From assembly GCA_017463185.1 (NCBI GenBank), contig JAFTPS010000003.1, forward strand, positions 27,113-91,112: a stretch of DNA of 64,000 bases, in the 5' to 3' direction. This document shows, piece by piece, positions 4,017 to 48,318 of this stretch. Under the pieces are notes generated by a model that searched no databases, was not told where the DNA came from, and worked only from the letters and a program-made list of their open reading frames with translations. Made by a program: the position numbers and the translations under genes. Within the stretch, counting starts at the first letter, position 1; the number at the start of each line of letters is the position of its first letter. The stretch comes from Alphaproteobacteria bacterium (GTDB taxonomy: Bacteria > Pseudomonadota > Alphaproteobacteria > Rs-D84).

Positions 4017-4130
4017 ATCAGACCTTGATTTTTAGGGTGATTTATGGTATAATATTGACCGTGGATGCAGACAGACTGCGTCCGTTTTTTTATTTAAACA
4101 ACTGGTGACATAATGAAAAGGATTTTTTAT

Positions 4131-4628
4131 ATGTCACGACAAATTCAAATACGACGCGGAACAACCAGTGAACATGAAACATTTACCGGTGCAATTGGTG
4201 AAATCACAATGGATACGGATGCCAAGACCCTGCGGGTGCACGACGGGGAAACGGTGGGTGGCGTGCCGTTGGCGCGCGCCGACAGTGTGCCGGATATGAG
4301 TGGTGCGGACTATGTTGTTGCCTGGCAATCGCCAAGTGCAGAAAATAACTATACCTGGTATCGTAAATATAAATCCGGCTGGGTTGAACAAGGGGGATAT
4401 ACAAACAGCAGTACGGTCACCCTGCCCCTGGCTATGGCGGATACGCAATACAATATCCAGATTACCGGTGATGCAAAGTCAACCAATAACAATGTGTACA
4501 TTTTTGGGTGTCAAAGTCGTACGACAACCGGCTTTTCTATGCTGGGGAATGTTGTAAACGGCAGCAGCCAATCGTCAACCGCCAATGGCGCACAACGCTA
4601 TTGGTTTGTGTGTGGGTTTTCCGCATAA
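4131..4628 (+). CDS. phage tail-fibre-like protein with Mtd-N-like N-terminal domain
   Basis: N-terminus MSRQIQIRRGTTSEHETFTGAIGEITMDTDAKTLRVHDGETVGGVPLA closely matches the conserved N-terminal domain of Bordetella phage Mtd-type receptor-binding proteins (..QFRGGTTAQHATFTGAAREITVDTDKNTVVVHDGATAGGFPLA..); RBS aaagga before ATG 4131 (track start 4113 also possible). Confidence 0.5.
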   Translation: MSRQIQIRRGTTSEHETFTGAIGEITMDTDAKTLRVHDGETVGGVPLARADSVPDMSGADYVVAWQSPSAENNYTWYRKYKSGWVEQGGYTNSSTVTLPLAMADTQYNIQITGDAKSTNNNVYIFGCQSRTTTGFSMLGNVVNGSSQSSTANGAQRYWFVCGFSA

Positions 4629-8674: not shown

Positions 8675-9089
8675 TTTGCCTTTCCTTTGTATTATAAAAA
8701 ATTAAATGCCGGGTTTTCTGGTGCCAGGTCCCCGGCCGACCCCGCAATCGCTAAAGCGAATGTGGTCAACAATTGCCAACCATATTCAAAGCCATATTAG
8801 GCAGCCATTGCAAGGCGAACATTGTCGTTCGCAGCGATTCTATCGCCATTCAGTTTTTAGTTAGTGTTTTACGACAACCATGTCGGATTCAATCTTTTGC
8901 CTTTATTTCGCCTGTCGAATCTATGTCAGCCCCATTTGCAAATATGACATCAATCATATCAGTAAATGGTGGAGCTGTGGGGTACCGCCCCCCAGTCCAA
9001 AACGATTATTCCACAAAGACTTCAGAATCATCACCGTTTACACGGCCGTATTATTATAGGCTTTTGGACTGGAAATTGCAAGTTTTTAA

Positions 9090-11397: not shown

Positions 11398-13161
11398 TTG
11401 GCAATGAAACAATATATTTTACCTCTTCGTGATTTGGTGGTGCATCCGGGGCTGACTGTGCCGGTGTACATTGATAATCCTGTGTCTGTATCGTGCCTGA
11501 AAGGGGCCGCGGCGGCGGACCGCCGTATTGTCTTGGTGCCACAGCACAGTTGGACCTATCCGACCACGCCCGACGACATTTACAATGTTGGCACGGTTGG
11601 CGACATTATCCAAGTTTTGCACATGCCCGATGGGGCGGTACATGCAATTGTTTGCACAACCGCGGCGGTCACGCTGGGGAATATAGAAGTGACAGATGGC
11701 CTGTTTACGGCGGACGCCACACCAATTGAAATTGCGACCGATGAAACCGCGCCGGAAACAATTGCGTTGCGTGATATGATTGCGGAAAATGTCCAGGCCA
11801 TGTCGTCGGTGCGTAAATTCAAAATGGATAAATTGCGCAGTGTGGTAAATAACTATCCCCTGCCCGCGTTTGTGGATTCTGTGGTTCAAATGATGGACAT
11901 TGATACCGATAATGCATTAAAGATTTTATGCGCGCCGTCATGGCGGGACAAATTGATTCTGTTGTTGGAACAGATTAAATTGATGGGTGAAACCGCTAAA
12001 ATAGAAGATTCTATAAATCGTCGTATTCACCAGCAAATGGAAAACGGCCGACGCGAAGCTATTTTACAGGAAAAAATGCGTGCCCTGCAAAAGGAAATGG
12101 GTGAAGACAGCGAGGAAATGGATTCCGAAAATATTCGCAAGCGGATTGTAAAATCGTCTATGCCGACCGAGGCCAAAGAAAAAGCAATGAGCGAATGGAA
12201 GCGTATGCGGTCGTTGTCGCCTATGTCAAATGAGGGCGGATTATTAAAAACATATTTAGACGAATTGTTGGCTATGCCATGGGGTAAAATGGACACAATT
12301 CCAATTGATTTGAATGTGGCGCGAAATGTTTTAGATTCCGAGCATTCCGGAATGACTGGCGTTAAAGAACGAATTTTGGAACACATTGCCGTTATGAAAA
12401 AAACTGGCGGCAACCAGGGCAGTATTTTATGTTTTGTTGGCGCACCGGGTGTGGGTAAGACTTCGCTGGGTAAATCAATTGCTGCGGCGTTGGGACGCAA
12501 GTATCAGCGAATTTCCCTGGGCGGTATTTCTGACGAGGCGCATTTCCGTGGTCATCGCAAGACCTATATTGGCGCACAGACTGGGCGTATTATGGATGCG
12601 TTAAAGCGTTGCAAAACAAACAATCCCGTGATTGTTCTGGATGAAATTGATAAAATGGGCCGCGATTGGCGTGGCGACCCGGAAAGTGCCCTGTTGGAAA
12701 TTCTGGACCCAGAACAGAACAAGACTTTCCGCGACCATTATTTAGAGGTGGATTTTGACCTGTCCAATGTGTTGTTTATTGCGACTGCAAACAGTCTGAA
12801 TTTATCCAATGCATTAAAGGACCGTATGGAAATTATTGAAATTCCGGGCTATTCAATTGATGATAAGGTTAAAATTGCACGTGAACATCTGATTGCGCGG
12901 GCAGCCCGTGATACTGGGTGGAATCCGGATGATATTGTAATCTTTGACGATGCAATTCGTCATATAATTCAAAACTATACATCCGAACAGGGGGTGCGTG
13001 AATTGCAACGTGAACTGACCGCGATTTTGCGTCGTGCATTGCTGGAAAACGATTGTGCGGATGTACGGACTGAATTTACCCCGGCCAAGATTGATGAATT
13101 GTTGTCGGTGCGTAAATCGGCCGGATTTTCCAAGAAAATTGGCTTTGGGGTACGGTTATGA
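11398..13161 (+). CDS. Lon-like ATPase: Lon N-domain + AAA+ module, no S16 protease domain
   Basis: LPLRDLVVHPGLTVPVYI (Lon N), Walker A GAPGVGKTSLGKSIA, Walker B VIVLDEIDKM, sensor/arginine finger regions align with E. coli Lon 1-585; ORF stops (..KIGFGVRL*) exactly where the protease domain would start and tsaB begins 4 nt earlier. Confidence 0.7.
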   Translation: MAMKQYILPLRDLVVHPGLTVPVYIDNPVSVSCLKGAAAADRRIVLVPQHSWTYPTTPDDIYNVGTVGDIIQVLHMPDGAVHAIVCTTAAVTLGNIEVTDGLFTADATPIEIATDETAPETIALRDMIAENVQAMSSVRKFKMDKLRSVVNNYPLPAFVDSVVQMMDIDTDNALKILCAPSWRDKLILLLEQIKLMGETAKIEDSINRRIHQQMENGRREAILQEKMRALQKEMGEDSEEMDSENIRKRIVKSSMPTEAKEKAMSEWKRMRSLSPMSNEGGLLKTYLDELLAMPWGKMDTIPIDLNVARNVLDSEHSGMTGVKERILEHIAVMKKTGGNQGSILCFVGAPGVGKTSLGKSIAAALGRKYQRISLGGISDEAHFRGHRKTYIGAQTGRIMDALKRCKTNNPVIVLDEIDKMGRDWRGDPESALLEILDPEQNKTFRDHYLEVDFDLSNVLFIATANSLNLSNALKDRMEIIEIPGYSIDDKVKIAREHLIARAARDTGWNPDDIVIFDDAIRHIIQNYTSEQGVRELQRELTAILRRALLENDCADVRTEFTPAKIDELLSVRKSAGFSKKIGFGVRL

Positions 13162-13700
13162 TTTTGCTGATAAATACATCTGGGGGAAATTTAGAATTTG
13201 TATTGGGCAATAAATACAAATCGGTTACTGTGGAAAAACAGTCAATCGCCCTGCCCGCTGAGTGCGAAAAATTCATTGATGAGTGTGGCGTAAAGTGGTC
13301 CGATTTACGGGCAATCGGTGTGGTTGTTGGTCCGGGCAGTTTTACAGGGATACGTTTGGGCATCGCGTATGCTAAGGGTTTGGCAATGGGATTGAATATT
13401 CCCATTGTGGGGATTAGTGCATTTGATTTGTATCTGGCCGAGACACCAGATGCGTTTGTAGCAATAGAATCGGGACGCGGTGACTTCTTTGTTGGGGCGG
13501 CGGATTTTGCGCCGTGTACTATGGGAATTGATGAATTGGAAACTAAACAGATGGAATGGCCCCGCACCGTCGGTCATCGGCCATTTGATTTGAAATTAGG
13601 CGTGCAAATAGTGGAACAAAAAATTGCCGCTGGTGATATAGCACCCGCGGTGCCAATGTATCTGCGCCCCAGTTATGCAGAAGAAAATAAAGGTAAATAA
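13158..13700 (+). CDS. tsaB: tRNA threonylcarbamoyladenosine biosynthesis protein TsaB
   Basis: ..AIGVVVGPGSFTGIRLGIAYAKGLA.. TsaB/YeaZ signature. Confidence 0.7.
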   Translation: MILLINTSGGNLEFVLGNKYKSVTVEKQSIALPAECEKFIDECGVKWSDLRAIGVVVGPGSFTGIRLGIAYAKGLAMGLNIPIVGISAFDLYLAETPDAFVAIESGRGDFFVGAADFAPCTMGIDELETKQMEWPRTVGHRPFDLKLGVQIVEQKIAAGDIAPAVPMYLRPSYAEENKGK

Positions 13701-13701: not shown

Positions 13702-14013
13702 ATGACAAATATGTTTAAGAAATTCTTTTTGCCAGAATATCAACTGCAAGTTTTGGATACAATAAAAAAGTATACAATATATTGTACAGGGAATAATGAA
13801 TTTACAATCAGTGACAAAGGGGTATATATTTCCGTTGTGCGTATGGAAACCACAAATTCGCGTCATCCAATTCTTATCAGATTGTATATGAACGATTTTA
13901 ATAATGGTTCAGCGATTCCAATTGATACATACGAACATAATACAGAATTTGCCAATATGGTATATAATAAAATGTTAAATACATACAAAAAGAATAATCG
14001 CCGTGCTAGATAA
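13702..14013 (+). CDS. hypothetical protein
   Basis: 104-aa ORF between tsaB and rimI, Asn/Lys-rich, no known motif. Confidence 0.3.
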   Translation: MTNMFKKFFLPEYQLQVLDTIKKYTIYCTGNNEFTISDKGVYISVVRMETTNSRHPILIRLYMNDFNNGSAIPIDTYEHNTEFANMVYNKMLNTYKKNNRRAR

Positions 14014-14389
14014 TCTGGCAAATCTTCATAAACTTTGTTTCCCGGACAAGCCCTGGGCGGCGGAAGAGTTCGCGGATTTAAAAAAATCTGGATGTGAAAT
14101 TATCGCCAGTCAGAATGGCTTTATTGTTTATCGCGCTGTTGCTGATGAAGCAGAAATAATTACCATAGGGGTTCATCCAGAGGCTCGGCGGGGCGGAATT
14201 GCGGTCGCAATGCTTGGGATTATGGAAGCGGACTTGAAAAAACAGGGTGTGAAACATATATTTCTTGAGGTGGCGGCGGACAATTCGCCGGCCCGTGCGC
14301 TGTACGAACAGAATGGGTTTGTAAAAATTGGCGTGCGCCCAAAATATTATGACGGCATAGATGCCGTTATGATGAGGAAAGATATATGA
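14003..14389 (+). CDS. rimI: ribosomal-protein-alanine N-acetyltransferase (GNAT)
   Basis: GNAT motifs ..ITIGVHPEARRGGIAVAML.. and ..NSPARALYEQNGF..; classic tsaB-rimI adjacency. Confidence 0.65.
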   Translation: MLDNLANLHKLCFPDKPWAAEEFADLKKSGCEIIASQNGFIVYRAVADEAEIITIGVHPEARRGGIAVAMLGIMEADLKKQGVKHIFLEVAADNSPARALYEQNGFVKIGVRPKYYDGIDAVMMRKDI

Positions 14390-15468
14390 ACATAAAATAT
14401 ATTCCCAGCTCAGCCGGCGTTATCAAGGCTGTGGCACGTACAGATGAAAATATTTATGGCACGCAAGAGGTGGATAAAATCGTCCCGGGTGTTCCGGCGA
14501 TTGTTGTACTGGGTGGGGAATTGACCTATGTCCCGAGATTTGCTAATCATTATATAAAACAGATAAAACGTGTGTTGGCGGAAAATAATGTTAGCGGAAC
14601 AGATATATACTCGGTCTTTTATGAATTCGGGTCACGTGATGCGGCGTTGGAACGCATTCAAATGTTTCAAGCGGCACGACACAAAGTACAAAATTCAAAT
14701 CGTCCAGCAGATGTTGTTGCCTGCAAGATGCAACATATGCAGTCTACCGAGCCAACCGCAAATTATATAAAGCAATTGTATAAAGCTTTAATTCATCCAA
14801 TACTAGTATTGGACACCGCAGGTGTCCAACCGAATGTGGTGGCAACATTACAAAATGCATCAAAGTTGCGATTTTATTGCCATTCGCACGGCGCAGCTGT
14901 GGCACGAATGCTGGGCAATCTGATGCGAGACGAAATGTTAAATATGGGGTTCAAAGCATCTGATATAAAACAAATACAGCAAAGTATTGTGGTTATTCAG
15001 CACGGTCCAATTGTACCACTAGAATATCCGTATTTTACAACATTATCATTTATGTCGGCTTCGGATACCCGAATGAACTTTCATAACGCTTTTTCAAAAT
15101 ATGCATCAGAAAACAGCGAAAATATATACCCCAGTTATTTTCCCCAAGCGGGGGCGCATTTGTTTGTTGCGGGACAAATAAGCCGGAATTTTGGGAACGA
15201 ACACGATAATATCGGATTGGCAAAAGAAGAATTTCAAACCCTGACCGATGATGGCCGCATTATATTTGCCGCAGAAAGAAATGCGATTACAAACGCTGTA
15301 AAAACGGCTATTGCGGGTGTAAAAGTGCCATCTGTACGTGAATTAGTCAGTGGCCCAGGGGTTGATTTTAATGAACTGGTTTGTAATGGCGAATGGTTTT
15401 ATAAATTGATGATGACGGAACTTAAACAGTTGCGTCAACAAAATCTAAAACACGTGAATCAAAAATAA
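14386..15468 (+). CDS. hypothetical protein (possible alpha/beta-hydrolase-like CHSHG elbow)
   Basis: 360-aa ORF overlapping rimI stop by 4 nt; no firm family assignment. Confidence 0.35.
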   Translation: MNIKYIPSSAGVIKAVARTDENIYGTQEVDKIVPGVPAIVVLGGELTYVPRFANHYIKQIKRVLAENNVSGTDIYSVFYEFGSRDAALERIQMFQAARHKVQNSNRPADVVACKMQHMQSTEPTANYIKQLYKALIHPILVLDTAGVQPNVVATLQNASKLRFYCHSHGAAVARMLGNLMRDEMLNMGFKASDIKQIQQSIVVIQHGPIVPLEYPYFTTLSFMSASDTRMNFHNAFSKYASENSENIYPSYFPQAGAHLFVAGQISRNFGNEHDNIGLAKEEFQTLTDDGRIIFAAERNAITNAVKTAIAGVKVPSVRELVSGPGVDFNELVCNGEWFYKLMMTELKQLRQQNLKHVNQK

Positions 15469-17026: not shown

Positions 17027-20000
17027 ATGGAAAAAAAGCGCAGTTTCCTGGGATTTTTGGCAAGTTTATTTTTGGTATTTTTTACCGCCAATGCGTTCGC
17101 GGCGGGCTATTCGTGTCCTACATATAAGTTGTACACATCGTGTAGCGAGAATTATTTCTTGGCTGATACCGATGTGTCTGACAGTGCTACTTCGGCGGGA
17201 AATGCATGTTCGGCCTGTCCTGGAAATTCTACAAACACTGTTTCAACTGCGACATCCTGTACCTGTAAAACGGGGTATAGTGTTGGCGGTGCAACCACAA
17301 CGACTGGTACGGCGTGTTCGGCCAATACATACACCGTTACTTATAACAGTAACAAGCCAAGTGGTGCTTCTGGCACAATTAGTGGCAGCACAGCGAACAG
17401 CACTCATACATATGGCACGGCCAAGGCATTGACAACAAACGGGTACAGTTTGACCGGGTGGACGTTTGCAGGCTGGAATACCAAGGCGGACGGTACAGGT
17501 ACATCTTATGCAAATGGCGCAAGTGTAACGAACCTGACCAGTACTTATAATGGAACGGTCACGCTGTATGCGAAATGGACTGTGAATACATTGACCATAA
17601 ACTATAACACCAGCAGTGCAACCAGTGGTACGCCATCTGTGTCACAACAGACATGTTCTTATGACGGAGCATGTACAGCGGCAACCCAGGGTACTATGGT
17701 TAAAACCAAGATGGTGTTCCTTGGTTGGACCAAGACATCTGGTGGAACAACCGTTGATTATGCGGCGGATGCATCTATCAAGAACATAATCAGCAGTGGT
17801 TCAATAACACTGTATGCAGTGTGGAAAACGCCGACATGTTCTGCGACCAAGGGTACTGCGACGTTAAAGAGTGTAACCAACAACACGCCAGTGTGTACTA
17901 TTACCTGTTCTACTGGGTACACTCAGGGCGGTGGCACGAATGCAACTGGGACGTTTGAAGTAAACGGTTCTGCCGGTGCAACCAGTGCAAGTGGCACATG
18001 TAAAGCGATTACATTTACAGTTGCATACACCAAAGACCCAAGTTCTGCAACGGGTACGGTTCCAAGTAATCAGACATGTACGTATGATGGCACATGTACT
18101 GCGGCGACGAATCCATTCTCTCATACGGGCTATATGTTTAACAAGTGGTCTTGTACCGCCAGCAGTGGCAGTTGCGCCGCCAGCACATATGCATCGGGTG
18201 ATAGTCTGAAAAATGCAACATCTGTTGCAGGTGCGACGATTACTCTGAAATCTACTTGGGATGCGAACACCATTACCCTGAACTGGGCAAATGGCGGACA
18301 TGGTACAGCGCCGACCAGTCCCGCATCGTGTAAGTATGACAGCACATTCACCATGCCGGCCGCGATGACCGCAACGGGTTATACATTTAATAAGTGGTCT
18401 GTGAATGGCAAAACGTTCAATGCGGGTACAACCGGTGTTGCGTGTACCAGTGCCAATCTGGGGGTAAGCAGTGGAGCCGTCACAATTACAGGTACCTGGA
18501 CCGCAAACAACTATTCCATTAGCCTGGACAATGCAAGCGCGACAAATAATGGGACAGCGACCATTTACACCACATATAAAACAAATGTGTATTTGGACGA
18601 CGCGCGCAGCAAGGCTATGACAGCATCCGCGAATGCTATCACAGAACCGACGCGCGCGTACACGGTCACATATGATGGCAATGGTGGTTCGGTGTCCGCA
18701 ACCAGTGCGACGGCAACATATACATTCAATGGTTATTACAATACGTCCAGCAATGGCACACAATACATTAACTCAAACGGGAATATCACATCCGATGGTT
18801 TGAACGCAGCTAAGGATGTGGATGATAATACAACAACCTGGTACGCACAATGGACCAGTAAATCTGTGACATTGCCAACACCGACCAGAACGGGCTATAC
18901 ATTTAAAGGCTGGGCAGAATCCTCAACCGCGACCGGTGGAGATACGGGTTCATATACCCCGACCAAGAATGTCACATTATATGCAATCTGGTCGCAGAAT
19001 ACCTATGCTGTCGCCTATTCCTGTGGTGATGGAGCTGGGACCGCCCCCAGTTCCACGACCGCGACATATGACAACTCATTTACACCGGCGGCTAACACAT
19101 GCACACGCAGTGGATATAACTTTGCCGGATGGACGGTAAGTGGCACAAGTGATACCAAGACCGCAGGTTCGGCATTTACTTGGACATATACTGAGGGCAA
19201 AACATTTACCGCCAAATGGACAGCCGAGGGCGAGGCGGAAATCAACTATGTCACAAATGGTGGCACAATCAATGGTTCGTACATGGCGGCGTGTAATGTT
19301 GAAACAGCAACATTTAGTTTGCCGACAGATGTCACAAAACCGGGTTATACATTTAATGGATGGTACACCGCATCCACTGGTGGGACCAAGGTGACAAGTG
19401 TTGTAAAGGGCACATGCACATCCGCGCTGACATACTATGCACAATGGACCGCATGCGACAGCACAACCGCGGGTGCTTGTAATTGTACCAGCAGTCAATA
19501 TCCAGACAATGGGACATGTACAAATTGTTCGCACAGCTGTGCCAGCGTCACTGGATATACACTGGGTACATATAATGTATGTGAGGCGGAAACGGATTTA
19601 TGGTGTTATCGCAATTGTACAACCACTGATATTCCAAATTCTACCGGTGTGTCTGGGATTGTTACTAAGGGCGGAAAAATTTTATGTGCAGCAACGACGT
19701 GTGCAGATGATTTCTATATATCAGGCAGTGGCTGTCAGTCATGTCCAGAAAATGCGACATGCGGGGGCGAAGCCGAATGGTCATGTGATGAGGGATATAA
19801 AAAGACCGCCAATGGCCTGGGGTGTGAACCAAATACATACACCGTCACATTGAATGCGAATGGTGGTACGGGTGGGACTGCGTCCGTCACGGCAACTTAT
19901 AACAGCCTGTTGCAAACGGCGACTATGCCAGAGCGCGACAACTATAACTTCCTGGGGTACTATGATACGGATGCAACCACGGGTGGCAATCAGTATTATG

Positions 20001-23000
20001 ACGAGAGTGGTAAGCCGGTAAAGGCATGGACCACGGCGGCAAATGGCACATTGTATGCGCGTTGGGAATTGGGTGTATTTCCATGCACCGCGGGCAAAGC
20101 AGCCGACGGAACAACATGTACGCCGGGATATTACTGTCCGGGTGGAGATGTGACCGCGGGCAATGAATCCAGCGAAACCGCAGGATGTGAAATCAAATGT
20201 CCAAGTGCATCGGGCAAAACGATTAGTTCTGTTTCCGGCGCGACACTGAAAACCCAGTGTACAGCCGCGGGGGATGTAGATATTACAAATGAATCCACGA
20301 CAGTTGTGTCGGGGCGTGGTACCGAAACATGTAGTTGGAACGAAAGTACGGACTCATATTCACTCTCTTGCAATATCGTGCCGACATACTGCCAGGGTGG
20401 ATATTACAGACCGGCTGCGAACTCGCCATTCTGTAATGAGGTTGGCTATGGCTATTATCGTGGCGATAGCGAAGCCGTGACAACACGCAATGCGTGTTCG
20501 GCCCTGTCGGGTGCGTCGGGCGCGACAACATCAACCACGACATCCAGTGCGGCAACAGCATGTTTTAATATGTGTTTGCAGACGGTGACCACAGATGGCA
20601 ACGGGGTATTAAATCCGGTCAATGAAAACGAATTTTATAATGCAACGACCAAGACTATTGCGGCCTGCTCTTATACACTAAGTTGTAATACTGGGTATCG
20701 GGCGGCAAGTGATACAACATGCGAACCAGATGTTTTTGCGATTACACTGGACCACAATGGTGGCACGGGCAGCGTGAATACAATATATCTGAAATATAAC
20801 ACCGGATGGTATTCGGACAGCAATGCCACCAGCAAAATTACCAAGGTCACTTTGCCGACCCTGGCGGGCCAGACATGTTCGGGATATTTAAGTGGCAGCA
20901 CCGTTGTGATTGGTTCTACGGGTAATTTGACAACGAATTACACATTATTCTCGGACGACGCCACAATTAAAGCATCGTATGCCGATAATCCGTCAATCTC
21001 ATGTGCGGCGGGAACATATTATGCCGGTACGGGGACATCATGTACCAACTGTCCGGCGGGCAGTTATTGCGCGGGTGTTGAGGCAATTCAAGACACCGGT
21101 ACGGCCAGTGGTATTGCGACCTGTGAGGCGTTGAATGGCACATATACGGCCGCTGTGGATAAAAATGGTAATAAATTGACGGTGATGATTAGTTCGGCGA
21201 CAAAATCCGATGCGGCGGCGGACTGTTATGCGACAAATGTTGCCTATGCACCCGACCAATACACAGCGGGCAGTCAGACTTGTCAGTATGACGCAGGTAC
21301 TAAATCATATACCGCAAATTGCAGTGCGAAAACCGTTATTACCTGTGCGGGTGGTTATGCCCTGGCCAGCGGAACCGCCACAGTTTGCACGATTGTTGAT
21401 TTGGGATATTACAGCCCGGATAAAGAAACCTCTGCAACACGGTGTCCAGAAAATTCGGATACGGGTACACGCGGCACAACCCAGGAAAAGGGGCGCACCA
21501 GTGCCGAGGCCTGTATAATGGATGACCTGTGGTATGAAAATGATACCAGCGGTCAAAGACGGCAGTGTTTTTATTCGGCCGAGTCGGGCAAATATGACCG
21601 AAACTGTCCACAATCAACGATTGTGACCTGTATCGCGGGGTATTATTACGATGGTGTACAAACTGACAATTGCGTGCCGGTTGGGAATGGGTATTGGAGT
21701 CCGGCTCAATCCGAATGCTCGGGCGAATCCGCGCAGCCAACCGTTGCAGGTTGCTCAACCGAACGCAATTATTGTGGCACAGGTATAGATACCAAGGATG
21801 CCGACGGTAATATCACAAATACCGCGTCCAGCATCACATATTGCGTGGGCCTGTGCGAGGCGGGATATTACTGCGTCCCCGGCGAAGATGCACAAAAATG
21901 CCCCGCCGACTATCCAGACTCTCAGCCCGGCGCAACCAGTATTGATGAGTGTTATGTGGAAGCATCATGTTCGTGTATAGAAGATTCTTCTGTGTGTCCA
22001 GATAATGCTAATAGATGCACATATCGGACTTCTACTGTGACGGGGGTTTATTATTATGCAGACCCAGCCACTTGTGTCGCTAATCCAGAAGACCCAGAAA
22101 GCTCATATTGTCAGATTAACTCTTCATACTGCGCCGATGATTTTTATAGTAGATATTATACTATAACGGGTGAAGAGGTGTCTCGCAGTGAAACGAGTCG
22201 TTTTAGTTCAACCTGTGATAGTTGTTCAACGGTTTCTGCAGATTATCCATATGCATATTCTTATGAAAGCTATAAAGGTGTTAATGGGTGTTGGGCTTAC
22301 TGCGACTTTTACTGTGACGACCCAATTTGTCCACTAGACTCTGAAGGATATTGCGAATATGATAAATATATCATTTCCAAAGAAGGTAAGCTGTATTATC
22401 CGGGCGATGGTGAATGTACCGCGGCTTCCTCTTTGCAAGCAACTTGTTCCGTTACGAAAATTGGCTGTAATACAGGATATGAGTTTAATCCGAATGCCGC
22501 TGATTCAGATAGTATGTGCGAGTTGATTGTTGCTAAGGTCACGTTGAAAGTAAATGGTGGGGATGGGACAGATTCTGTGGTGTACCAGAAGTATGCAACA
22601 GGATGGTATTCAGATGAAGACGCGACAAGTTCTGTTTCCAGGCTTACAACACCAACGCGCACAAACTATTCGTTCTTGGGTTATTCCGCGGACGAAGAAG
22701 GAACAAATATTGTCCTGGCGGCGGATGGCATTTTGCCAGAGCCAGAATTGTTCACAGCCGATACGACATTGTATGCACAGTGGTCGCAGAATCTGGTAAC
22801 CTGTGAAGCGGGCAAGTACTATGATAGTGGCGTGCTGACCGAGTGTGTTGCACCATATTACTGCCCAGGTGAAGGAAATGTGGTTGTTGGTGGTACAGGC
22901 TGCCGTGAAACATGTCCAAATGGCGGGACCATTGATGAAGATGGCGCATCCAGCATCAACAGATGCCACAAGATTATCACGGATTCGTCAAAGAATTTCC

Positions 23001-26000
23001 CGAATGGTACGGCGCAATGGGATTGCTATTACACCAGCGGGACCGGCGATAATGCCCTGTACAGTACAAGTTGCACGGTTGTACCAAGAACCTGTAATCC
23101 TGGGTACTATCACGAGGGTAATAATGCTGTCGGATGTACAGTTGTGGAAGATAAATATTACAGTCCCGCCAATAAGTTGGACAAATATCTGTGTGAAGGT
23201 GGTGACGGGTCGGTACTGCCACGTGATAGCCAGGAAAATTGCTATGTATCCTGTGATTTGACCGCGGCGGATGTGCCACACAGCAAAACCGTGACACCCG
23301 ACAGCGAACAGGCCATGTATTCTGGTAGTGCATATGAAACATGTACATATACATTGACCTGTGACCCAGGATATACTGCGGTACCGGGTGCAAATCCACA
23401 ATGTAAGGCAAATGAATATACAATTACATTGGATAAAAACAAGGGCACGGGCAATATTGCGGACAGTGTACAATGCACATTTGACAGTGGGGCATGCGCC
23501 CTGCCCGCGACAAGTTCGCTGGTACGACCGGGATACAATGTAATTGCCAAGTGGTGTAAAAAGGACGACGGCACCGGTGATTGCTATGGCGCGGGGAACA
23601 CGATTACGGACAACATATCGGCAACGGGTACGGATGTGACGCTGTATGCGGTATGGCAACCGGCAGTATTCAAAATCATACTGAGTGCATCGGATGCAAC
23701 GGCAAATGGCGCACAGGGACCAGTGTATCTGAAATATGCAACGGGTTGGTATTCCGATGAATCGGCAAACACCCCGATAACCAGTTTGGGTACAAACCTG
23801 CCCCAAAAGACGGGATATGAATTTGCGGGCTATAAACTGGGCGACATTAGTATCATTGACGCAAATGGCGCATTGCAGACGAATGAAAATGCATTGAGCG
23901 CAACAACAGTGGATGCAACCGCAACGGCGGTGTGGTCGGCGGGCTTTACATCCTGTGCGGCGGGGACATACTATTCCGGAAATGGCAGTGTATGTTTGAC
24001 CTGTACGGAAAATAACTGGTGCCCAGGTGGCGACAAATTCGCAACCGATTCCGGCACGCCGGATGGACTGAATGCGTGTCCGAATGGCGGTTTGTCGGCG
24101 GGTGGCGAAAGCGCAACCAATGTTGGCGTGTGTTATAAGGAACAGTTGCCTTATACATCGGCCAGCACACACGCGACGGGAACCCAGACATGCTATTATG
24201 GTACAGATGATTATAATGCAAACTGTAAAGACATTGTGGTCACGGCATGTGGGGCGGGATACTATTATGTGTCAGGAACCGATTGCTCAGAGGTTGACGT
24301 AGACCATTATAGTGGCGCGGACGATATGAAACGCTATGCGTGTCCAAACGGTGGTGGCACGGGCAGTCTGACAACGGCCAGCGTGATAACTGAATGCTTT
24401 AAGACGGTTGACTTTACATCCGCGTCGGGCAATGGTACTGGAACCCAGGTATGTACATATACCAGTGGCGAAGGTGCGGATGCCAGATACGCAACCGAAT
24501 GTCGCGAACAGTATGTCAGTCATTGTAAGGGCGGTTATTACAAGACAACCGATGATGCGATTGACTGCGACAAGGTGGGCAAGAATAATTACAGCCCAGA
24601 GGGATCTGTAGCACGTGAGAAATGTCCAGATGGCGGGTTGACCGAATCCGAAACAGCGAATGCACCGACATTCTGTTATAAAACGGATACGCCGTATTCC
24701 AGCGAACACGGTCGGGGTATTCAGTTGTGTTATTACAACGCGGAAACAACCGTGTATGATACCGGGTGCAGCACAATCATAATGCATGAATGCGACGCAG
24801 GGTATTATTGGAAAAATGGCGACAAAGACTGTGAACCAGTTGACTATGGATTCTATGGACCAGTTGCAGATGTAAATAACAGCAACCGTCCAACCACACG
24901 CGATATGTGTCCGGATAACGGACTGACCAAAACAGACACCAGTGCGGATATATCAGAATGCTATCGCACGGATGTGGAATGCACGGTCAACAATGGTGTG
25001 GGTGAAGCGACCTGTAATTATGACGCGGATGCGGGCGCATATTCTGCGGAATGCGGCACATGTGCGGTGACGGGTTGTGGTGAAGGCTATTATTCAACCG
25101 ACGGCACAAACTGTGTTGAATGCCCAGCGGGCAGTATCTGCGACGGTAGCGATGACGATGGCGATGGAATCCCAGATGCCAAGACTTGTGCAAGCCTGAC
25201 CGGTGGTACGCATACCAAGTCTGACAGCGGTATAAGCGATGTAAACTATTGCTATACAGACTGTCCGATTGTTGAGAATGCAAACAGTGTGACGGGACGC
25301 GATTACTATGGCGCGACGGACACTTGCAAGATCAATTCCTGCCGGCCGGGGTATAAGTTGCAGAATTTCCAGTGTGTGGCGTGTGCCGAGGGCGAAATTT
25401 GCGATGGCTCGGTCAAAGACGAAGACGGCGACGGGAACCAGGACGAAGAACCTAAGACCTGTGCCGAATTGACCGGCGGCACGCACACAATGTCAGACGC
25501 AAAATCGGATAGCATAAACGACTGTTATCATATGTGCGAGGCATATGAACTGGATGGTGGCGAGGCCGTGCCAGTCAGTGAACGCGCCCAGTATCCAGAT
25601 GACTGCGAATTTGAAGGCATATCCGATACCGGAAATCCGTGCGATATTGTTGATGGACGCTGCGTTGAAACATCGTGCAATTCAAATTTTGAATTGATAA
25701 ACGGGTCGTGCAAGCCATGTAATCGTGAACACGCAATTACATATAAGCCAACGGGGAACTGTGTTGTGGAATCTTGCGCGACGGGGTATCATCCGAATGG
25801 CCAGGCCTGTGAAGATGATGTTGTGTCGTGCAGTGCACCGAATGCAATATCCGCGACGCGGGTATGGAATACCAAAAAGAACGCGTTTGGCGAATGTATT
25901 ATCACCGAATGCGACGACGGTTATCATTTGGCGGCAAATGCATGCCAGGCCGACGAACAACCGTGCGAGGTTGAACATGGTACCGGTATGCGCGAATGGA

Positions 26001-26326
26001 ACCATAAAACAAATACCTGGGGGGCGTGCATTGCCACCAGTTGCGAACCGGGATATACCAGCGACCGTTCTTTGACCAATGAACTGTCCAAACAGTGCGG
26101 ACGCTGCAACAATATGTACAGCGCGTTGGGAGAACTGGCCGCCAGCAGTTATGTAAGCGAATGTGAAATCGCATCGTGTATGTATCAGGGTGAAAAGTAC
26201 ACATTGGAAAACAATGAATGTATTCTGATATGTGATACGCGCAGCGATGAAACTGGCAGCCAAAAATGGAACGCATCGCGTGGCAAGTGTGAACGAACCT
26301 GTGCGGATGGGTATATTGAGTGGTAA
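17027..26326 (+). CDS. giant secreted surface/adhesin-like protein (3099 aa): signal peptide, Listeria-Bacteroides (Flg_new) repeats, ephrin-receptor/GCC2-like Cys modules, EGF-like Cys-rich C-terminus
   Basis: Signal peptide MEKKRSFLGFLASLFLVFFTANAFA; >10 repeats of ..GYTFxGWNTxxDGTGTxYxxGxxV..LYAxW; recurring CxAGxYYxGxGxxCxxCPxGxYCxG modules; DGDG Ca-binding-like stretches; RBS agagaggaag; terminator follows. Confidence 0.8.
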   Translation: MEKKRSFLGFLASLFLVFFTANAFAAGYSCPTYKLYTSCSENYFLADTDVSDSATSAGNACSACPGNSTNTVSTATSCTCKTGYSVGGATTTTGTACSANTYTVTYNSNKPSGASGTISGSTANSTHTYGTAKALTTNGYSLTGWTFAGWNTKADGTGTSYANGASVTNLTSTYNGTVTLYAKWTVNTLTINYNTSSATSGTPSVSQQTCSYDGACTAATQGTMVKTKMVFLGWTKTSGGTTVDYAADASIKNIISSGSITLYAVWKTPTCSATKGTATLKSVTNNTPVCTITCSTGYTQGGGTNATGTFEVNGSAGATSASGTCKAITFTVAYTKDPSSATGTVPSNQTCTYDGTCTAATNPFSHTGYMFNKWSCTASSGSCAASTYASGDSLKNATSVAGATITLKSTWDANTITLNWANGGHGTAPTSPASCKYDSTFTMPAAMTATGYTFNKWSVNGKTFNAGTTGVACTSANLGVSSGAVTITGTWTANNYSISLDNASATNNGTATIYTTYKTNVYLDDARSKAMTASANAITEPTRAYTVTYDGNGGSVSATSATATYTFNGYYNTSSNGTQYINSNGNITSDGLNAAKDVDDNTTTWYAQWTSKSVTLPTPTRTGYTFKGWAESSTATGGDTGSYTPTKNVTLYAIWSQNTYAVAYSCGDGAGTAPSSTTATYDNSFTPAANTCTRSGYNFAGWTVSGTSDTKTAGSAFTWTYTEGKTFTAKWTAEGEAEINYVTNGGTINGSYMAACNVETATFSLPTDVTKPGYTFNGWYTASTGGTKVTSVVKGTCTSALTYYAQWTACDSTTAGACNCTSSQYPDNGTCTNCSHSCASVTGYTLGTYNVCEAETDLWCYRNCTTTDIPNSTGVSGIVTKGGKILCAATTCADDFYISGSGCQSCPENATCGGEAEWSCDEGYKKTANGLGCEPNTYTVTLNANGGTGGTASVTATYNSLLQTATMPERDNYNFLGYYDTDATTGGNQYYDESGKPVKAWTTAANGTLYARWELGVFPCTAGKAADGTTCTPGYYCPGGDVTAGNESSETAGCEIKCPSASGKTISSVSGATLKTQCTAAGDVDITNESTTVVSGRGTETCSWNESTDSYSLSCNIVPTYCQGGYYRPAANSPFCNEVGYGYYRGDSEAVTTRNACSALSGASGATTSTTTSSAATACFNMCLQTVTTDGNGVLNPVNENEFYNATTKTIAACSYTLSCNTGYRAASDTTCEPDVFAITLDHNGGTGSVNTIYLKYNTGWYSDSNATSKITKVTLPTLAGQTCSGYLSGSTVVIGSTGNLTTNYTLFSDDATIKASYADNPSISCAAGTYYAGTGTSCTNCPAGSYCAGVEAIQDTGTASGIATCEALNGTYTAAVDKNGNKLTVMISSATKSDAAADCYATNVAYAPDQYTAGSQTCQYDAGTKSYTANCSAKTVITCAGGYALASGTATVCTIVDLGYYSPDKETSATRCPENSDTGTRGTTQEKGRTSAEACIMDDLWYENDTSGQRRQCFYSAESGKYDRNCPQSTIVTCIAGYYYDGVQTDNCVPVGNGYWSPAQSECSGESAQPTVAGCSTERNYCGTGIDTKDADGNITNTASSITYCVGLCEAGYYCVPGEDAQKCPADYPDSQPGATSIDECYVEASCSCIEDSSVCPDNANRCTYRTSTVTGVYYYADPATCVANPEDPESSYCQINSSYCADDFYSRYYTITGEEVSRSETSRFSSTCDSCSTVSADYPYAYSYESYKGVNGCWAYCDFYCDDPICPLDSEGYCEYDKYIISKEGKLYYPGDGECTAASSLQATCSVTKIGCNTGYEFNPNAADSDSMCELIVAKVTLKVNGGDGTDSVVYQKYATGWYSDEDATSSVSRLTTPTRTNYSFLGYSADEEGTNIVLAADGILPEPELFTADTTLYAQWSQNLVTCEAGKYYDSGVLTECVAPYYCPGEGNVVVGGTGCRETCPNGGTIDEDGASSINRCHKIITDSSKNFPNGTAQWDCYYTSGTGDNALYSTSCTVVPRTCNPGYYHEGNNAVGCTVVEDKYYSPANKLDKYLCEGGDGSVLPRDSQENCYVSCDLTAADVPHSKTVTPDSEQAMYSGSAYETCTYTLTCDPGYTAVPGANPQCKANEYTITLDKNKGTGNIADSVQCTFDSGACALPATSSLVRPGYNVIAKWCKKDDGTGDCYGAGNTITDNISATGTDVTLYAVWQPAVFKIILSASDATANGAQGPVYLKYATGWYSDESANTPITSLGTNLPQKTGYEFAGYKLGDISIIDANGALQTNENALSATTVDATATAVWSAGFTSCAAGTYYSGNGSVCLTCTENNWCPGGDKFATDSGTPDGLNACPNGGLSAGGESATNVGVCYKEQLPYTSASTHATGTQTCYYGTDDYNANCKDIVVTACGAGYYYVSGTDCSEVDVDHYSGADDMKRYACPNGGGTGSLTTASVITECFKTVDFTSASGNGTGTQVCTYTSGEGADARYATECREQYVSHCKGGYYKTTDDAIDCDKVGKNNYSPEGSVAREKCPDGGLTESETANAPTFCYKTDTPYSSEHGRGIQLCYYNAETTVYDTGCSTIIMHECDAGYYWKNGDKDCEPVDYGFYGPVADVNNSNRPTTRDMCPDNGLTKTDTSADISECYRTDVECTVNNGVGEATCNYDADAGAYSAECGTCAVTGCGEGYYSTDGTNCVECPAGSICDGSDDDGDGIPDAKTCASLTGGTHTKSDSGISDVNYCYTDCPIVENANSVTGRDYYGATDTCKINSCRPGYKLQNFQCVACAEGEICDGSVKDEDGDGNQDEEPKTCAELTGGTHTMSDAKSDSINDCYHMCEAYELDGGEAVPVSERAQYPDDCEFEGISDTGNPCDIVDGRCVETSCNSNFELINGSCKPCNREHAITYKPTGNCVVESCATGYHPNGQACEDDVVSCSAPNAISATRVWNTKKNAFGECIITECDDGYHLAANACQADEQPCEVEHGTGMREWNHKTNTWGACIATSCEPGYTSDRSLTNELSKQCGRCNNMYSALGELAASSYVSECEIASCMYQGEKYTLENNECILICDTRSDETGSQKWNASRGKCERTCADGYIEW

Positions 26327-40069: not shown

Positions 40070-41155
40070 TTACTCAAACACGCTTTTGACATCTGTCATT
40101 ATATCACCGGCGCGTTTGTCGGATATGCCGACACGATGTGCGACCGCCAACATATCGGCACCTGTGATGTCTATGCCTTTGCCATTTACAGATGTTGTGT
40201 GTTCCCAAATTCCAGGTGTTCGGGTTAAGTCAAAGACAGGGGAAACATGCCAATCACCGTCATCATATAAAAATGCAAAATTTTTGGTGTGGTCATCGGT
40301 ATTGTTTATCCAAATGTTAAACACCATAAGGCGGAACATTTTTTCAACTTCAACCATATTACGGGTTAATTTCGCAGTCAAAGACAATAAATCAGAATAA
40401 TCAACCACAGGTTGTGTATGGTCTGCGTCCAACAGACCTGCTGCAGAAATCATAAAGACTTTATCGCCATTTGGTTTGCGGTCAAAACGCCGAACCCCAA
40501 AGTATTTTCCATTAAACAATCTATGTTCTGGTGTATCTAGGCCCGCTTTGATTGCAGATTCCATAATATTAAATTCTTGGGCACCAATATCTATTGGGTC
40601 TGTTCGGGCAGGAAATTTGATAATCCAATCCATACCATCAACTTTGCGGAATATTTTTGGACGTGTTCCACCGGACGAGCCACCAATACGAAACAATTCT
40701 TCGGTGATTTTATCTTCTGTGGTTATTGCATTGTCTTCAATGATTTTTCTGACCTGAATTGCAATGTCGTCCAGTTCGGAATCTTTGTATTCTGCAATCA
40801 TTTCAGCAGCAGGTTCAAATTCCAATGCCCCAGGCCCATTTTTACCAACGATTGCCAATCTGTCCAATACAGAAATGCTGTTCGGTGCAATTCCACGCCG
40901 CTGTAATTCACGATTTACCAATAATTGTCCCCAACTGTCTGGCAAAGAATCATTAAAAACACCAAACACACCGTCAAATGGATTGCGATTTGCAATAAAT
41001 ACGCGCTTTTCCAATGGTAATTTAAATGGTGATATACTAAAACCATTTTCCAGCCAACCTGCGTCATATTCAAATGCCATAAGGTTATCAGGGGTCAATG
41101 CCAAACGCCCAACCACCATGTCATGATATTTAACCGTCAGAATTTTATTTTGCAT
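40070..41155 (-). CDS. hipA: HipA-family serine/threonine kinase toxin
   Basis: HipA N-domain (..FDGVFGVFNDSLPDSWG..), catalytic NTDDHTKNFAF motif; start MQNKIL at 41155 overlaps hipB stop by 11 nt. Confidence 0.8.
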   Translation of the reverse strand: MQNKILTVKYHDMVVGRLALTPDNLMAFEYDAGWLENGFSISPFKLPLEKRVFIANRNPFDGVFGVFNDSLPDSWGQLLVNRELQRRGIAPNSISVLDRLAIVGKNGPGALEFEPAAEMIAEYKDSELDDIAIQVRKIIEDNAITTEDKITEELFRIGGSSGGTRPKIFRKVDGMDWIIKFPARTDPIDIGAQEFNIMESAIKAGLDTPEHRLFNGKYFGVRRFDRKPNGDKVFMISAAGLLDADHTQPVVDYSDLLSLTAKLTRNMVEVEKMFRLMVFNIWINNTDDHTKNFAFLYDDGDWHVSPVFDLTRTPGIWEHTTSVNGKGIDITGADMLAVAHRVGISDKRAGDIMTDVKSVFE

Positions 41156-41426
41156 GTTCGCCACCGTCCCGTACAACATCAAATATAGACTGATAATTTT
41201 TACGCACAAACAGGTTGTCAAAATCGCCTTCGTATCCCAGCGCCTGCGATAACTTAATCAGTGCAGTTAATGATATTTCCCCGGTTCGTTCAAATCGCTT
41301 GATTGAGCCCAAAGATACCCCAGAACGCTGGACCAATGTCATTTGCGACATCTTGGCGGTGCGTCGAACGGTACGGAACCTGTCTTTTATTCTGGTTTTG
41401 ATAGATAATATATTATCTATATTCAT
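41145..41426 (-). CDS. hipB: HTH XRE-family antitoxin HipB
   Basis: 93-aa Cro/C1-type HTH (..MSQMTLVQRSGVSLGSIKRFERTGE..) immediately upstream of and overlapping hipA. Confidence 0.65.
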   Translation of the reverse strand: MNIDNILSIKTRIKDRFRTVRRTAKMSQMTLVQRSGVSLGSIKRFERTGEISLTALIKLSQALGYEGDFDNLFVRKNYQSIFDVVRDGGEHAK

Positions 41427-41638
41427 TGTTTGTGCCTGTGTTTAGATATTATATTGTCTATAATTATAATGCAGCGTTGTAGATTTTGCAATAAAAAATC
41501 ATACAAAATCGTTTACAAACGACGGAAAACACGATAAATTATAAAAGCGCCAAGCAAAGTGTCAGGCAAACTGATAAAAACTGCTGAAAATCGGGTTGAA
41601 ATGGGCAGAAAAATGCCAAAAATGGCGTAAACACAGTC

Positions 41639-41654
41639 CCCTTCGCCCGCACCA
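41639..41654 (+). repeat. 16-nt duplicate of tRNA-Gly 3' end (cccttcgcccgcacca): candidate attR of tRNA-Gly islet
   Basis: Identical to 38801-38816; 2.8 kb downstream of the tRNA. Confidence 0.5.
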
Positions 41655-43092: not shown

Positions 43093-43095
43093 TGA

Positions 43096-48317: not shown

Positions 48318-48318
48318 A

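What the first reader, a model, noticed from the sequence alone, without database searches (positions are those of the whole stretch)
11398..13161. Lon homologue that stops exactly at the AAA+/protease boundary (protease-less Lon)
The ORF aligns with E. coli Lon residues 1-585 (N-domain, Walker A/B, sensor-2) and terminates (..GFGVRL*) where the S16 peptidase domain should begin. tsaB starts 4 nt before the stop, so there is no room for a frameshifted protease domain. This could be a Lon-derived unfoldase or regulator, or a recent truncation.
Basis: seen in the sequence. Interest (0 to 1): 0.5.

Follow-up and report, generated by a model that had tools for sequence, protein, structure and literature searches.

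The report
Protease-less Lon ATPase with IGF tail
A gut bacterium with a tiny genome keeps the motor half of the Lon protease but lost the cutting half long ago, and the short conserved tail left behind looks like the peg that other such motors use to plug into the separate ClpP protease.

Summary
ORF 11404-13161 (585 aa) has the LonA N-domain, AAA+ module and lid, with every ATPase and pore motif intact. It has no S16 peptidase domain, and its stop overlaps the tsaB start (ATGA).

It is neither an artefact nor a recent truncation:
- The same ~585-aa gene occurs in 237 species-level genomes of Candidatus Enterousia (Alphaproteobacteria, order Rs-D84, genomes under 1 Mb).
- The stop lies within 4 codons of the same position in all 87 loci examined.
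- dN/dS is about 0.08.
- The closest full-length Lon (769 aa, 50% identical) sits in the same lon-tsaB-rimI position, so this is the lon orthologue after one ancient loss of the peptidase domain.

New here: the last 15 residues are predicted disordered yet carry an invariant basic-I-G-F motif four residues from the C-terminus. A second, independent protease-less Lon clade in Bacteroidales carries R/H-V-G-F at the same place. Phe is never found at that position in 340 full-length Lons. [IV]GF matches the tripeptide by which ClpX, ClpA and ClpC dock on ClpP.

My best reading (about 0.4) is a Lon-derived unfoldase that feeds ClpP. The main rival is a stand-alone unfoldase or chaperone. I could not test whether these genomes carry clpP or a separate S16 gene.

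The parts
11404..13161 (+). lon' : protease-less LonA orthologue, 585 aa (an alternative TTG start at 11398 gives 587 aa); the end coordinate includes the stop
   Evidence: ORF list and sequence. Gene callers in 15 assemblies give 585 aa. Domain content. Best PDB match is E. coli LonA 13-557. AF2 model has pLDDT 82 and its best Foldseek hits are all LonA structures.
11416..11976 (+). Lon N-terminal substrate-binding domain (PF02190)
   Evidence: Pfam E 5e-23, profile positions 4-198 of 200. Median dN/dS is 0.15 for residues 1-115 and 0.09 for residues 116-240, so the domain is kept under selection.
12427..12837 (+). AAA+ alpha/beta module. In 585-aa numbering: Walker A GAPGVGKTS (nt 12439-12465, K352); pore-loop-1 T-Y-I-G (Y388, nt 12565-12567); Walker B D413-E414 (nt 12640-12645); sensor-1 N463; Arg finger R474
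   Evidence: Pfam AAA E 3e-22. All these residues are invariant in a 35-sequence alignment that includes full-length Lons. Median dN/dS is 0.017.
12913..13044 (+). Lon lid (alpha) sub-domain, with sensor-2 R532 in the G-V-R motif
   Evidence: Pfam Lon_lid E 1e-12. G530, V531 and R532 are invariant.
13048..13158 (+). C-terminal tail (residues 549-585). It has a structured strand and helix (T-E-F-T..K-I-D-x-L-L), then a predicted-disordered end (residues 571-585, nt 13114-13158)
   Evidence: AF2: strand 556-558, helix 560-573, pLDDT below 50 for 571-585. Family consensus ..TEFTxxKIDxLLSxRKxAGFxKKIGFGxRx. Median tail dN/dS 0.10. The tail aligns to the lid-to-P-domain linker and first P-domain strand of full-length Lon.
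13138..13146 (+). I-G-F tripeptide (residues 579-581), preceded by K-K and followed by 4 residues to the C-terminus; candidate docking motif
   Evidence: Phe occurs at this position in 0 of 340 full-length Lons. It matches the (L/I/V)-G-(F/L) ClpP-docking consensus (PMC8745299). The ClpX of an alphaproteobacterium on L089 reads SSIGFGAKV.
13158..13700 (+). tsaB, translationally coupled to lon' by an ATGA overlap. The lon-tsaB-rimI order is the synteny marker that shows orthology with full-length lon
   Evidence: TIGR03725 at 83.9 bits against a cutoff of 69.3. The same lon-tsaB(-rimI) order holds around the 769-aa full-length Lon P0123 on L091 and the 580-aa P0122 on L094.

Best explanation
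The gene is the orthologue of lon in Candidatus Enterousia and its relatives. It lost its S16 peptidase domain once, long ago, and has since been kept as a working LonA-type AAA+ unfoldase: an N-domain for substrate binding, a hexameric ATPase and a translocating pore.

Shown here:
- orthology with full-length lon;
- a single ancient loss of the peptidase domain;
- intact catalytic and pore residues;
- strong purifying selection;
- a disordered but invariant C-terminal basic-[I/V]-G-F motif that arose independently in a second protease-less Lon clade.

Inferred, not shown:
- The six C-terminal tails hang from the face of the ring where the peptidase domain used to sit.
- They insert their I-G-F into the hydrophobic pockets of a separately encoded ClpP, as the IGF/IGL/VGF loops of ClpX, ClpA and ClpC do.
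- Lon-type substrate selection would then be coupled to ClpP proteolysis.
For: Orthology and age:
- Full-length P0123 (769 aa, 50% identical, with the PKDGPSAG active-site serine motif) lies in lon-tsaB-rimI with the same 4-nt overlap. P0122 (580 aa) lies in lon'-tsaB.
- The NJ tree gives (P0123,(P0122,(P0121,Enterousia))) with bootstraps of 100, 90, 95 and 100.
- 237 GTDB species genomes hold a relative, and the stop lies within 0-4 codons in all 87 loci.

Function kept:
- Walker A and B, pore-loop Tyr, sensor-1, Arg finger and sensor-2 are invariant.
- Median dN/dS is 0.084 overall, 0.017 in the AAA module and 0.10 in the tail.

Docking motif:
- Residues 571-585 have pLDDT below 50 and no secondary structure, yet K-K/R-I-G-F is invariant in 79 distinct Enterousia sequences and in P0121 and P0122.
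- The Bacteroidales clade (P0203, P0391-P0394; nearest relatives are full-length Bacteroidales or Muribaculaceae Lons at 54-57% identity) ends ..FG(R/H)VGFS plus 4 residues.
- The residue after the conserved Gly is F in 127 of 127 truncated Lons and in 0 of 340 full-length Lons. The distance from GF to the C-terminus is 4-5 residues in 126 of 127.
- The motif fits the (L/I/V)-G-(F/L) consensus and resembles a real ClpX loop: SSIGFGAKV against SKKIGFGVRL.
- An overlapping tsaB ribosome-binding site cannot explain the conservation. In other species, and in Bacteroidales, the downstream gene is different or convergent.

Against: - clpP has not been shown to exist in these genomes. No clpP, clpX or hslV lies in the 64-kb window or within 10 kb of lon' in 87 loci, and the rest of the genome could not be read.
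- The motif is only three residues long, and [I/V]-G is ancestral. It is part of the first P-domain strand, so a single substitution creates it.
- 25 of 340 full-length Lons have L at that position. They therefore match the consensus inside a folded strand that has no role with ClpP.
- Every known ClpP partner carries the tripeptide on an internal loop, not on a C-terminal tail.
- Only about 5 residues separate the predicted last helix (which ends at 573) from I579, so the reach is short.
- Whether a Lon AAA+ ring stays hexameric without its P-domain ring is uncertain (general knowledge).
Confidence: 0.4

Rival explanations
1. Stand-alone Lon-derived unfoldase, chaperone or remodeller. The protein works without any peptidase: it unfolds, disaggregates or holds Lon-type substrates. 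The conserved tail serves something else, such as ring stabilisation after loss of the P-domain ring, autoinhibition, or binding of a partner that is not a peptidase.
For: The motor and N-domain are intact and under selection. No peptidase gene lies in any of the neighbourhoods examined. The operon partners are housekeeping genes: obg upstream, tsaB and rimI downstream. Proteolytically dead Lon mutants are reported to keep chaperone-like activity (general knowledge, not checked here). Strongly reduced genomes often simplify their proteostasis machinery (PMC12306168; PMC7737663 is listed).
Against: This reading does not by itself explain why two independent truncations converged on basic-[IV]-G-F four to five residues from the end of a disordered tail, with F never seen there in full-length Lons.
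Confidence: 0.33
2. Split Lon. The S16 domain, minus its first strand, is encoded elsewhere in the genome. It re-associates with Lon' by strand complementation, with the I-G-F-G-V-R-L stub standing in for the missing strand.
For: The tail aligns with the first P-domain strand, x-G-x-V-x-G-L. The genome outside the window and its flanks was not searched.
Against: No S16-like sequence lies in the window or in 1.52 Mb of flanks. A database search with the P-domain of the closest full-length sister returned nothing above 60% identity and nothing attributable to this lineage. The short 'stand-alone' hits that were checked are frameshifted long-read assemblies. The stub has diverged from the strand consensus (GLAW lost), and in the Bacteroidales clade its remainder is not conserved (SAQTF, SAPVR, SASAR, STPAH).
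Confidence: 0.1
3. The tail docks on a different ring peptidase, such as HslV, in the way the C-terminal tails of HslU or the HbYX tails of proteasomal ATPases do.
For: The motif is C-terminal, and a six-fold partner would match a hexamer (general knowledge).
Against: The last 3-5 residues and the terminal residue itself are variable: VRL, VRA, VNL, TY, ERF, SVRI, AQTF, APVR and others. HslU and HbYX docking depend on the extreme C-terminus. No hslV lies in any sequence held.
Confidence: 0.05
4. Recent truncation, decaying pseudogene or assembly deletion.
For: None beyond the missing domain.
Against: The identical protein is found on 15 contigs from independent assemblies. 79 distinct full-length sequences share the same stop position. 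dN/dS is 0.08. The loss is shared with lineages at only 50-53% identity.
Confidence: 0.01

Closest known systems
LonA protease (E. coli Lon / endopeptidase La, MEROPS S16, TIGR00763)
   Same: The N-domain, long helical region, AAA+ module, lid and all motor residues are shared. Identity to bacterial LonA is 38-46% over aligned residues 7-549. It is the positional orthologue of a full-length lon.
   Different: It lacks the whole S16 peptidase domain and its Ser-Lys dyad, and it scores below the TIGR00763 cutoff. The literature defines every Lon as ATPase plus protease on one chain (PMC9569914). It carries a conserved basic-IGF C-terminal tail that no full-length Lon has.
ClpX / ClpA / ClpC (ClpP-partner AAA+ unfoldases)
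   Same: It is a stand-alone hexameric AAA+ unfoldase without its own peptidase. It carries an (L/I/V)-G-(F/L) tripeptide in a flexible segment on the peptidase-facing side. The local sequence IGFG(V/A)(R/K) is like the ClpX loop SSIGFGAKV.
   Different: It is not homologous to the Clp/Hsp100 clade beyond the AAA+ fold. The motif is on a short C-terminal tail rather than an internal loop. Binding to ClpP is not shown.
LonC (Meiothermus taiwanensis Lon-like protease without ATPase activity, PMC3391209)
   Same: It is a natural Lon relative in which one of the two activities has been given up (listed).
   Different: It is the mirror image. LonC keeps the protease and has a dead ATPase module; here the protease is gone and the ATPase is intact.
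HslU-HslV and PAN/Mpa-proteasome docking by C-terminal tails
   Same: An AAA+ ring contacts a separate peptidase ring through flexible C-terminal tails (general knowledge).
   Different: Those systems need a conserved extreme C-terminus. Here the last residues vary, and the conserved element lies 4-5 residues in from the end.
Proteolytically inactive Lon mutants (E. coli S679A, yeast Pim1 active-site mutant)
   Same: They are Lon motors without proteolysis that still bind, unfold or hold substrates (general knowledge; 6u5z is an S679A structure).
   Different: Those are laboratory point mutants that keep the P-domain ring. This is a natural, ancient deletion of the domain.

Membership tests
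LonA protease (S16.001 / TIGR00763 endopeptidase La) | N-terminal LON substrate-binding domain | tested here: met
   PF02190, E 5e-23, nearly full profile coverage.
LonA protease (S16.001 / TIGR00763 endopeptidase La) | AAA+ module with Walker A/B, pore-loop Tyr, sensor-1, Arg finger and sensor-2, plus the Lon lid | tested here: met
   PF00004 and PF22667 match. K352, D413/E414, Y388, N463, R474 and R532 are invariant.
LonA protease (S16.001 / TIGR00763 endopeptidase La) | C-terminal S16 peptidase domain with the Ser-Lys dyad (PKDGPSAG ... K) | tested here: not met
   No Lon_C hit. The model match stops at position 563 of 795. No S16-like sequence lies in the window or flanks. The stop overlaps tsaB.
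LonA protease (S16.001 / TIGR00763 endopeptidase La) | Whole-protein score above the curated equivalog cutoff | tested here: not met
   530.5 bits against a cutoff of 608.05; for NF008053, 453 against 891.
ClpP-partner unfoldases (ClpX/ClpA/ClpC type), functional class | (L/I/V)-G-(F/L) tripeptide on a flexible, exposed segment | tested here: met
   I579-G580-F581 lies in a segment with pLDDT below 50. The consensus is taken from PMC8745299. Caveat: it is on a C-terminal tail, not a loop.
ClpP-partner unfoldases (ClpX/ClpA/ClpC type), functional class | Sequence homology to the Clp/Hsp100 or ClpX families | tested here: not met
   The ClpA equivalog model scores only 32.6 bits against a cutoff of 993. 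All best matches are Lon.
ClpP-partner unfoldases (ClpX/ClpA/ClpC type), functional class | A clpP gene in the same genome | not testable with these tools
   None lies in the window or within 10 kb in 87 loci.
ClpP-partner unfoldases (ClpX/ClpA/ClpC type), functional class | Physical binding to ClpP and activation of it | not testable with these tools
   This needs biochemistry or multimer modelling. The structure tool takes one chain, and only sequences from this window or from the session's protein searches.
Anti-phage defence Lon-like / AAA proteins (PADLOC) | Significant match to a defence-system model, and a defence-island context | tested here: not met
   Only generic AAA-level hits (best DolB, 41 bits). 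The neighbours are obg, rubrerythrin, tsaB and rimI.

The most novel reading that the evidence does not exclude
LonA has at least twice shed its own peptidase domain and turned the leftover stub of that domain's first strand into an IGF 'plug'. The Lon N-domain/AAA+ motor now docks on ClpP. That would be a natural hybrid AAA+ protease, with Lon substrate selection and ClpP proteolysis, and a previously unrecognised class of ClpP partner that docks by a C-terminal tail.
Probability: 0.4. Interest if true: 0.85.

Novelty: new variant of a known kind. Interest (0 to 1): 0.62.

Why it matters
Lon is the textbook case of an AAA+ protease with motor and peptidase fused on one chain, and current classifications define every Lon that way (PMC9569914). 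Here there is a widespread natural family, in hundreds of gut-bacterial species, that kept only the motor under strong selection. A second clade reached the same architecture and the same tail motif independently.

If the tail docks on ClpP, motors and peptidases of different AAA+ protease families can be re-paired in evolution. The stub of a lost domain would have been turned into a docking peptide. That gives a simple natural system for asking what is minimally needed to couple an unfoldase to ClpP, which bears on ADEP-type drug mechanisms.

If there is no peptidase partner, the family is a natural test of Lon's long-debated protease-independent chaperone role, in organisms with minimal proteostasis networks.

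Either way, these genes are currently annotated only as 'AAA family ATPase'.

Tried and rejected
1. Looking for a split-off S16 domain. A homologue search with the P-domain of the closest full-length sister (P0123) returned only fragments at 60% identity or less, and not even P0123 itself. Two short 'stand-alone' hits on long contigs turned out to be frameshifted lon genes in tig-clpP-clpX-lon clusters of unrelated alphaproteobacteria. This was uninformative for Enterousia.

2. Looking for clpP, clpX, hslV, hslU, clpS or sspB. There were no hits apart from those unrelated contigs and generic P-loop matches.

3. Extending the window by 10 kb at each end, using the last two contig look-ups. No protease genes appeared.

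4. Supplementary tables of the Enterousia genome paper are not held, and the 2023 Enterousia paper is not held.

5. Neighbouring unknown ORFs as candidate peptidases:
- The 196-aa ORF near the Bacteroidales lon' resembles a uracil-DNA-glycosylase-type protein, not ClpP.
- The co-operonic 360-aa ORF (14386-15468) has no family or PDB match. It is only 27-55% identical between species and is sometimes duplicated.
- I rejected it as a conserved Lon' partner because it evolves far faster than Lon'.

6. Defence-system membership: rejected.

7. Conservation of the tail as a by-product of the overlapping tsaB ribosome-binding site: rejected, because the tail is equally conserved where the downstream gene differs or is convergent.

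8. Literature searches for a described protease-less Lon, or for a Lon-ClpP pairing, found none in the held library. This is not proof that none exists.
Full report
**1. The observation**

The + strand ORF runs from 11398 (TTG) or 11404 (ATG) to 13161. Independent gene callers start at the ATG and give 585 aa; cluster P0001 is 100% identical.

- Pfam finds the Lon substrate-binding N-domain (aa 7-193), an AAA domain (344-480) and the Lon lid (506-549), and no Lon_C.
- The NCBIfam equivalog for endopeptidase La matches only model positions 2-563 of 795. It scores 530 bits, below its 608-bit cutoff.
- The best solved structure is E. coli LonA (6u5z), aligned over its residues 13-557.
- The protein ends KKIGFGVRL. 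Its TGA (13159-13161) overlaps the ATG of tsaB (13158), which is confirmed as TsaB by TIGR03725.

**2. Not an artefact and not recent**

- The identical protein is carried on 15 contigs from independent assemblies, with the same neighbours.
- The protein database holds at least 120 clusters at 78-100% identity. All are 585-588 aa and none has Lon_C.
- One scan of GTDB species representatives found 237 genomes encoding a relative. The 80 loci kept are titled Candidatus Enterousia or Alphaproteobacteria MAGs from yak, sheep, goat, deer, buffalo, chicken and human guts. They include a circular 958,618-bp MAG, OZ007020.1.
- Enterousia (order Rs-D84) is described as a lineage with genomes under 1 Mb and a probably partner-dependent lifestyle (PMC12306168).
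- In all 87 loci then held, the ORF stops within 0-4 codons of the same aligned position. No S16-like sequence lies in the 1.52 Mb of flanks.
- Among 79 distinct sequences, median pairwise dN/dS (pairs with dS between 0.2 and 1.5) is 0.084 for the gene, 0.017 for the AAA module, 0.15 for the N-domain and 0.10 for the tail.

**3. It is the lon orthologue, and the domain was lost once**

An exhaustive HMMER search of 1.84 billion cluster representatives gave three nearest neighbours:

| Protein | Length | Identity | S16 domain |
|---|---|---|---|
| P0121 | 593 aa | 53% | absent |
| P0122 | 580 aa | 50% | absent |
| P0123 | 769 aa | 50% | complete (PKDGPSAG) |

- P0123 lies in lon-tsaB-rimI, with the same 4-nt overlap of lon and tsaB (L091).
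- P0122 lies in lon'-tsaB (L094).
- A neighbour-joining tree on 547 N+AAA columns gives (P0123,(P0122,(P0121,Enterousia))) with bootstraps of 100, 90, 95 and 100.

So a full-length lon at this chromosomal position lost its peptidase domain once, before these lineages diverged to about 50% identity.

**4. The motor is intact**

In an alignment with full-length Lons, the following residues are invariant (585-aa numbering):

- Walker A (G346..K352-T353-S354)
- pore-loop T387-Y388
- Walker B D413-E414
- sensor-1 N463
- Arg finger R474
- sensor-2 R532

The AF2 model (pLDDT 82) is a LonA N-domain plus AAA+ fold. Its best Foldseek matches are all LonA structures.

**5. The tail**

After the lid there is a conserved strand and helix (T-E-F-T..K-I-D-x-L-L). 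Then come 15 residues with pLDDT below 50 and no secondary structure (residues 571-585). This disordered end still carries an invariant [K/R]-[K/R]-I-G-F followed by four residues. P0121 ends GRKIGFRTTSVRI and P0122 ends GKKIGFSERF.

In the alignment, I-G-F sits on the V/I-G-x of the first P-domain strand, x-G-x-V-x-G-L-A-W. The tail is therefore a remodelled stub of the lost domain.

**6. A second, independent clade with the same tail**

- P0203 (615 aa, 38% identical to the query) belongs to a small Bacteroidales clade with P0391-P0394 (626-627 aa, 61-66% identical to P0203).
- Their nearest relatives are full-length Bacteroidales or Muribaculaceae 'endopeptidase La' proteins at 54-57% identity.
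- In the tree, P0203 groups with another Bacteroidales-type Lon (bootstrap 100), far from the Rs-D84 clade.
- Their genes are followed by convergent genes, so no P-domain is hidden downstream.
- Their tails read ..RR(T/V)FG(R/H)VGFS plus four variable residues.

Across all sequences held:

- The residue after the conserved Gly is F in 127 of 127 truncated Lons.
- It is never F in 340 full-length Lons (V 226, Q 53, L 25, I 19, others 17).
- GF lies 4-5 residues from the C-terminus in 126 of 127.

Two independent losses thus converged on a basic-[I/V]-G-F motif near the end of a flexible tail.

**7. Mechanistic reading**

(L/I/V)-G-(F/L) is the tripeptide on flexible loops of Clp ATPases that inserts into the hydrophobic pockets of ClpP (PMC8745299). 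The tail here reads SKKIGFGVRL.

The tail leaves the AAA+ ring on the face where Lon's own peptidase ring would sit. I therefore propose that this Lon-derived unfoldase hands substrates to ClpP.

This step is inferred, and several points count against it:

- I could not establish that these genomes have clpP. None lies in the window or within 10 kb of lon' in 87 loci.
- The motif is short, and it is ancestral apart from the Phe.
- A C-terminal position for the motif is unprecedented.
- The linker to the last helix is short.

The window's two-piece tmRNA encodes the tag AANDNVRLAMAA, which keeps an ...AA end as in ClpXP-degraded tags. That is only weak support for a Clp system being present.

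I put this reading at about 0.4. The rivals are:

- a stand-alone unfoldase or chaperone whose tail has another role (0.33);
- a split Lon with the P-domain encoded elsewhere (0.10);
- docking on HslV or another ring (0.05), disfavoured because the extreme C-terminus is variable;
- pseudogene or artefact (0.01 or less).

**8. Comparison with what is known**

By homology and position this is LonA. By definition it is not a Lon protease: the S16 domain and the dyad are absent, and it scores below the curated cutoff. Current classifications state that every Lon has both domains on one chain (PMC9569914).

It is the mirror image of LonC, which keeps the protease and has a dead ATPase (PMC3391209, listed). 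It is not a Clp/Hsp100 homologue and not a defence-system protein. Searches of the held literature found no description of a protease-less LonA or of a Lon-ClpP pairing. Databases name it only 'AAA family ATPase'.

**9. Limits**

These checks are the genome-wide presence of clpP, clpX, hslUV, a second lon or a stand-alone S16 domain in Enterousia and in the Bacteroidales clade.
Positive controls on unrelated contigs worked for ClpP, ClpX and HslU (ClpX cross-hits). The Lon P-domain query had no positive control.
- The tree is a distance tree.

**Verdict**

'Recent truncation' is refuted and 'Lon-derived unfoldase' is supported. The convergent IGF tail is a new and testable clue to a possible Lon-motor/ClpP hybrid. 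I rate it a new variant of a known kind, interest 0.62.

Noticed in passing
window 8706-9059 (-): Permuted (two-piece) tmRNA gene with tag peptide AANDNVRLAMAA. It lies just upstream of obg and 2.3 kb from lon'. The tag keeps the alphaproteobacterial AANDN start and an ...AA end.
   Followed up: partly
window 47071-52208: Type II CRISPR-Cas locus: an array of about 12 units (36-nt repeat GTTATAGGTTGCTTCTCAAATCGTCTTTGATATAAT, period 66) at 47071-47884, cas1 at 48319-49233 (-), and a compact 973-aa Cas9 (HNH plus RuvC) at 49287-52208 (-). This is notable in a genome under 1 Mb.
   Followed up: partly
window 17027-26326 (+): A giant 3099-aa ORF with Flg_new repeats. It is conserved in position in relatives but very variable in length (1607-3099 aa or more). 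It is probably a surface protein.
   Followed up: no
window 13702-14013 (+); L007 13081-14224: A family of small paralogous ORFs (103-133 aa, starting M-x-N-x-F-Q/K-K-F-F-x-P-E-Y-Q) sits between tsaB and rimI. There is 1 copy here and 3 tandem copies in L007. Other unrelated small ORFs are inserted between lon' and tsaB in relatives. None has a family match.
   Followed up: partly
window 14386-15468 (+): A 360-aa ORF overlaps the rimI stop (ATGA) and is present downstream of rimI in 45 distinct copies across the loci. It is only 27-55% identical between species, and it is tandemly duplicated in some (L066, L049, L054, L024, L033). Conserved residues include an H-C/S-H-G-A motif and Q-H and E-H pairs. 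It has no Pfam, NCBIfam or PDB match, and the single-sequence AF2 model failed at pLDDT 34.
   Followed up: partly
window 40070-46967: A cluster of toxin- and effector-like genes: HipA kinase (40070-41221, -), a Slam-like outer-membrane protein with TPR (41752-43092, -) next to a 570-aa unknown (43096-44808, -), a Hypoth_Ymh protein (45133-45810) and a Fic/DOC protein (45909-46967).
   Followed up: no
window 4113-4628 (+): An ORF with an Mtd_N domain (the N-terminal domain of the phage major tropism determinant) sits among glycosyltransferase genes. It may be a remnant of a diversity-generating or phage-derived element.
   Followed up: no
L021 / L022 (contig JAIDWS010000009.1, 24,088 bp): Two identical-scoring copies of lon' lie on one 24-kb contig, near its two ends. 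One MAG (JAFVSL01) has copies on two contigs. This is probably an assembly or strain-mixture effect rather than a true duplication.
   Followed up: no
P0210, P0233, P0270: Further Lon-like representatives of 561-587 aa end near the lid without an IGF-type tail. One of them (P0210) has a very AT-rich, endosymbiont-like composition. They may be contig-end fragments, pseudogenes or additional protease-less Lons.
   Followed up: no
L095 736-5994: In the Bacteroidales protease-less lineage, trigger factor (tig) is followed by a DUF4405-like ORF, a glycosylase-like ORF, AlgH (DUF179) and lon'. It is not followed by clpP-clpX, which I recall (from memory) as the usual neighbours of tig.
   Followed up: partly
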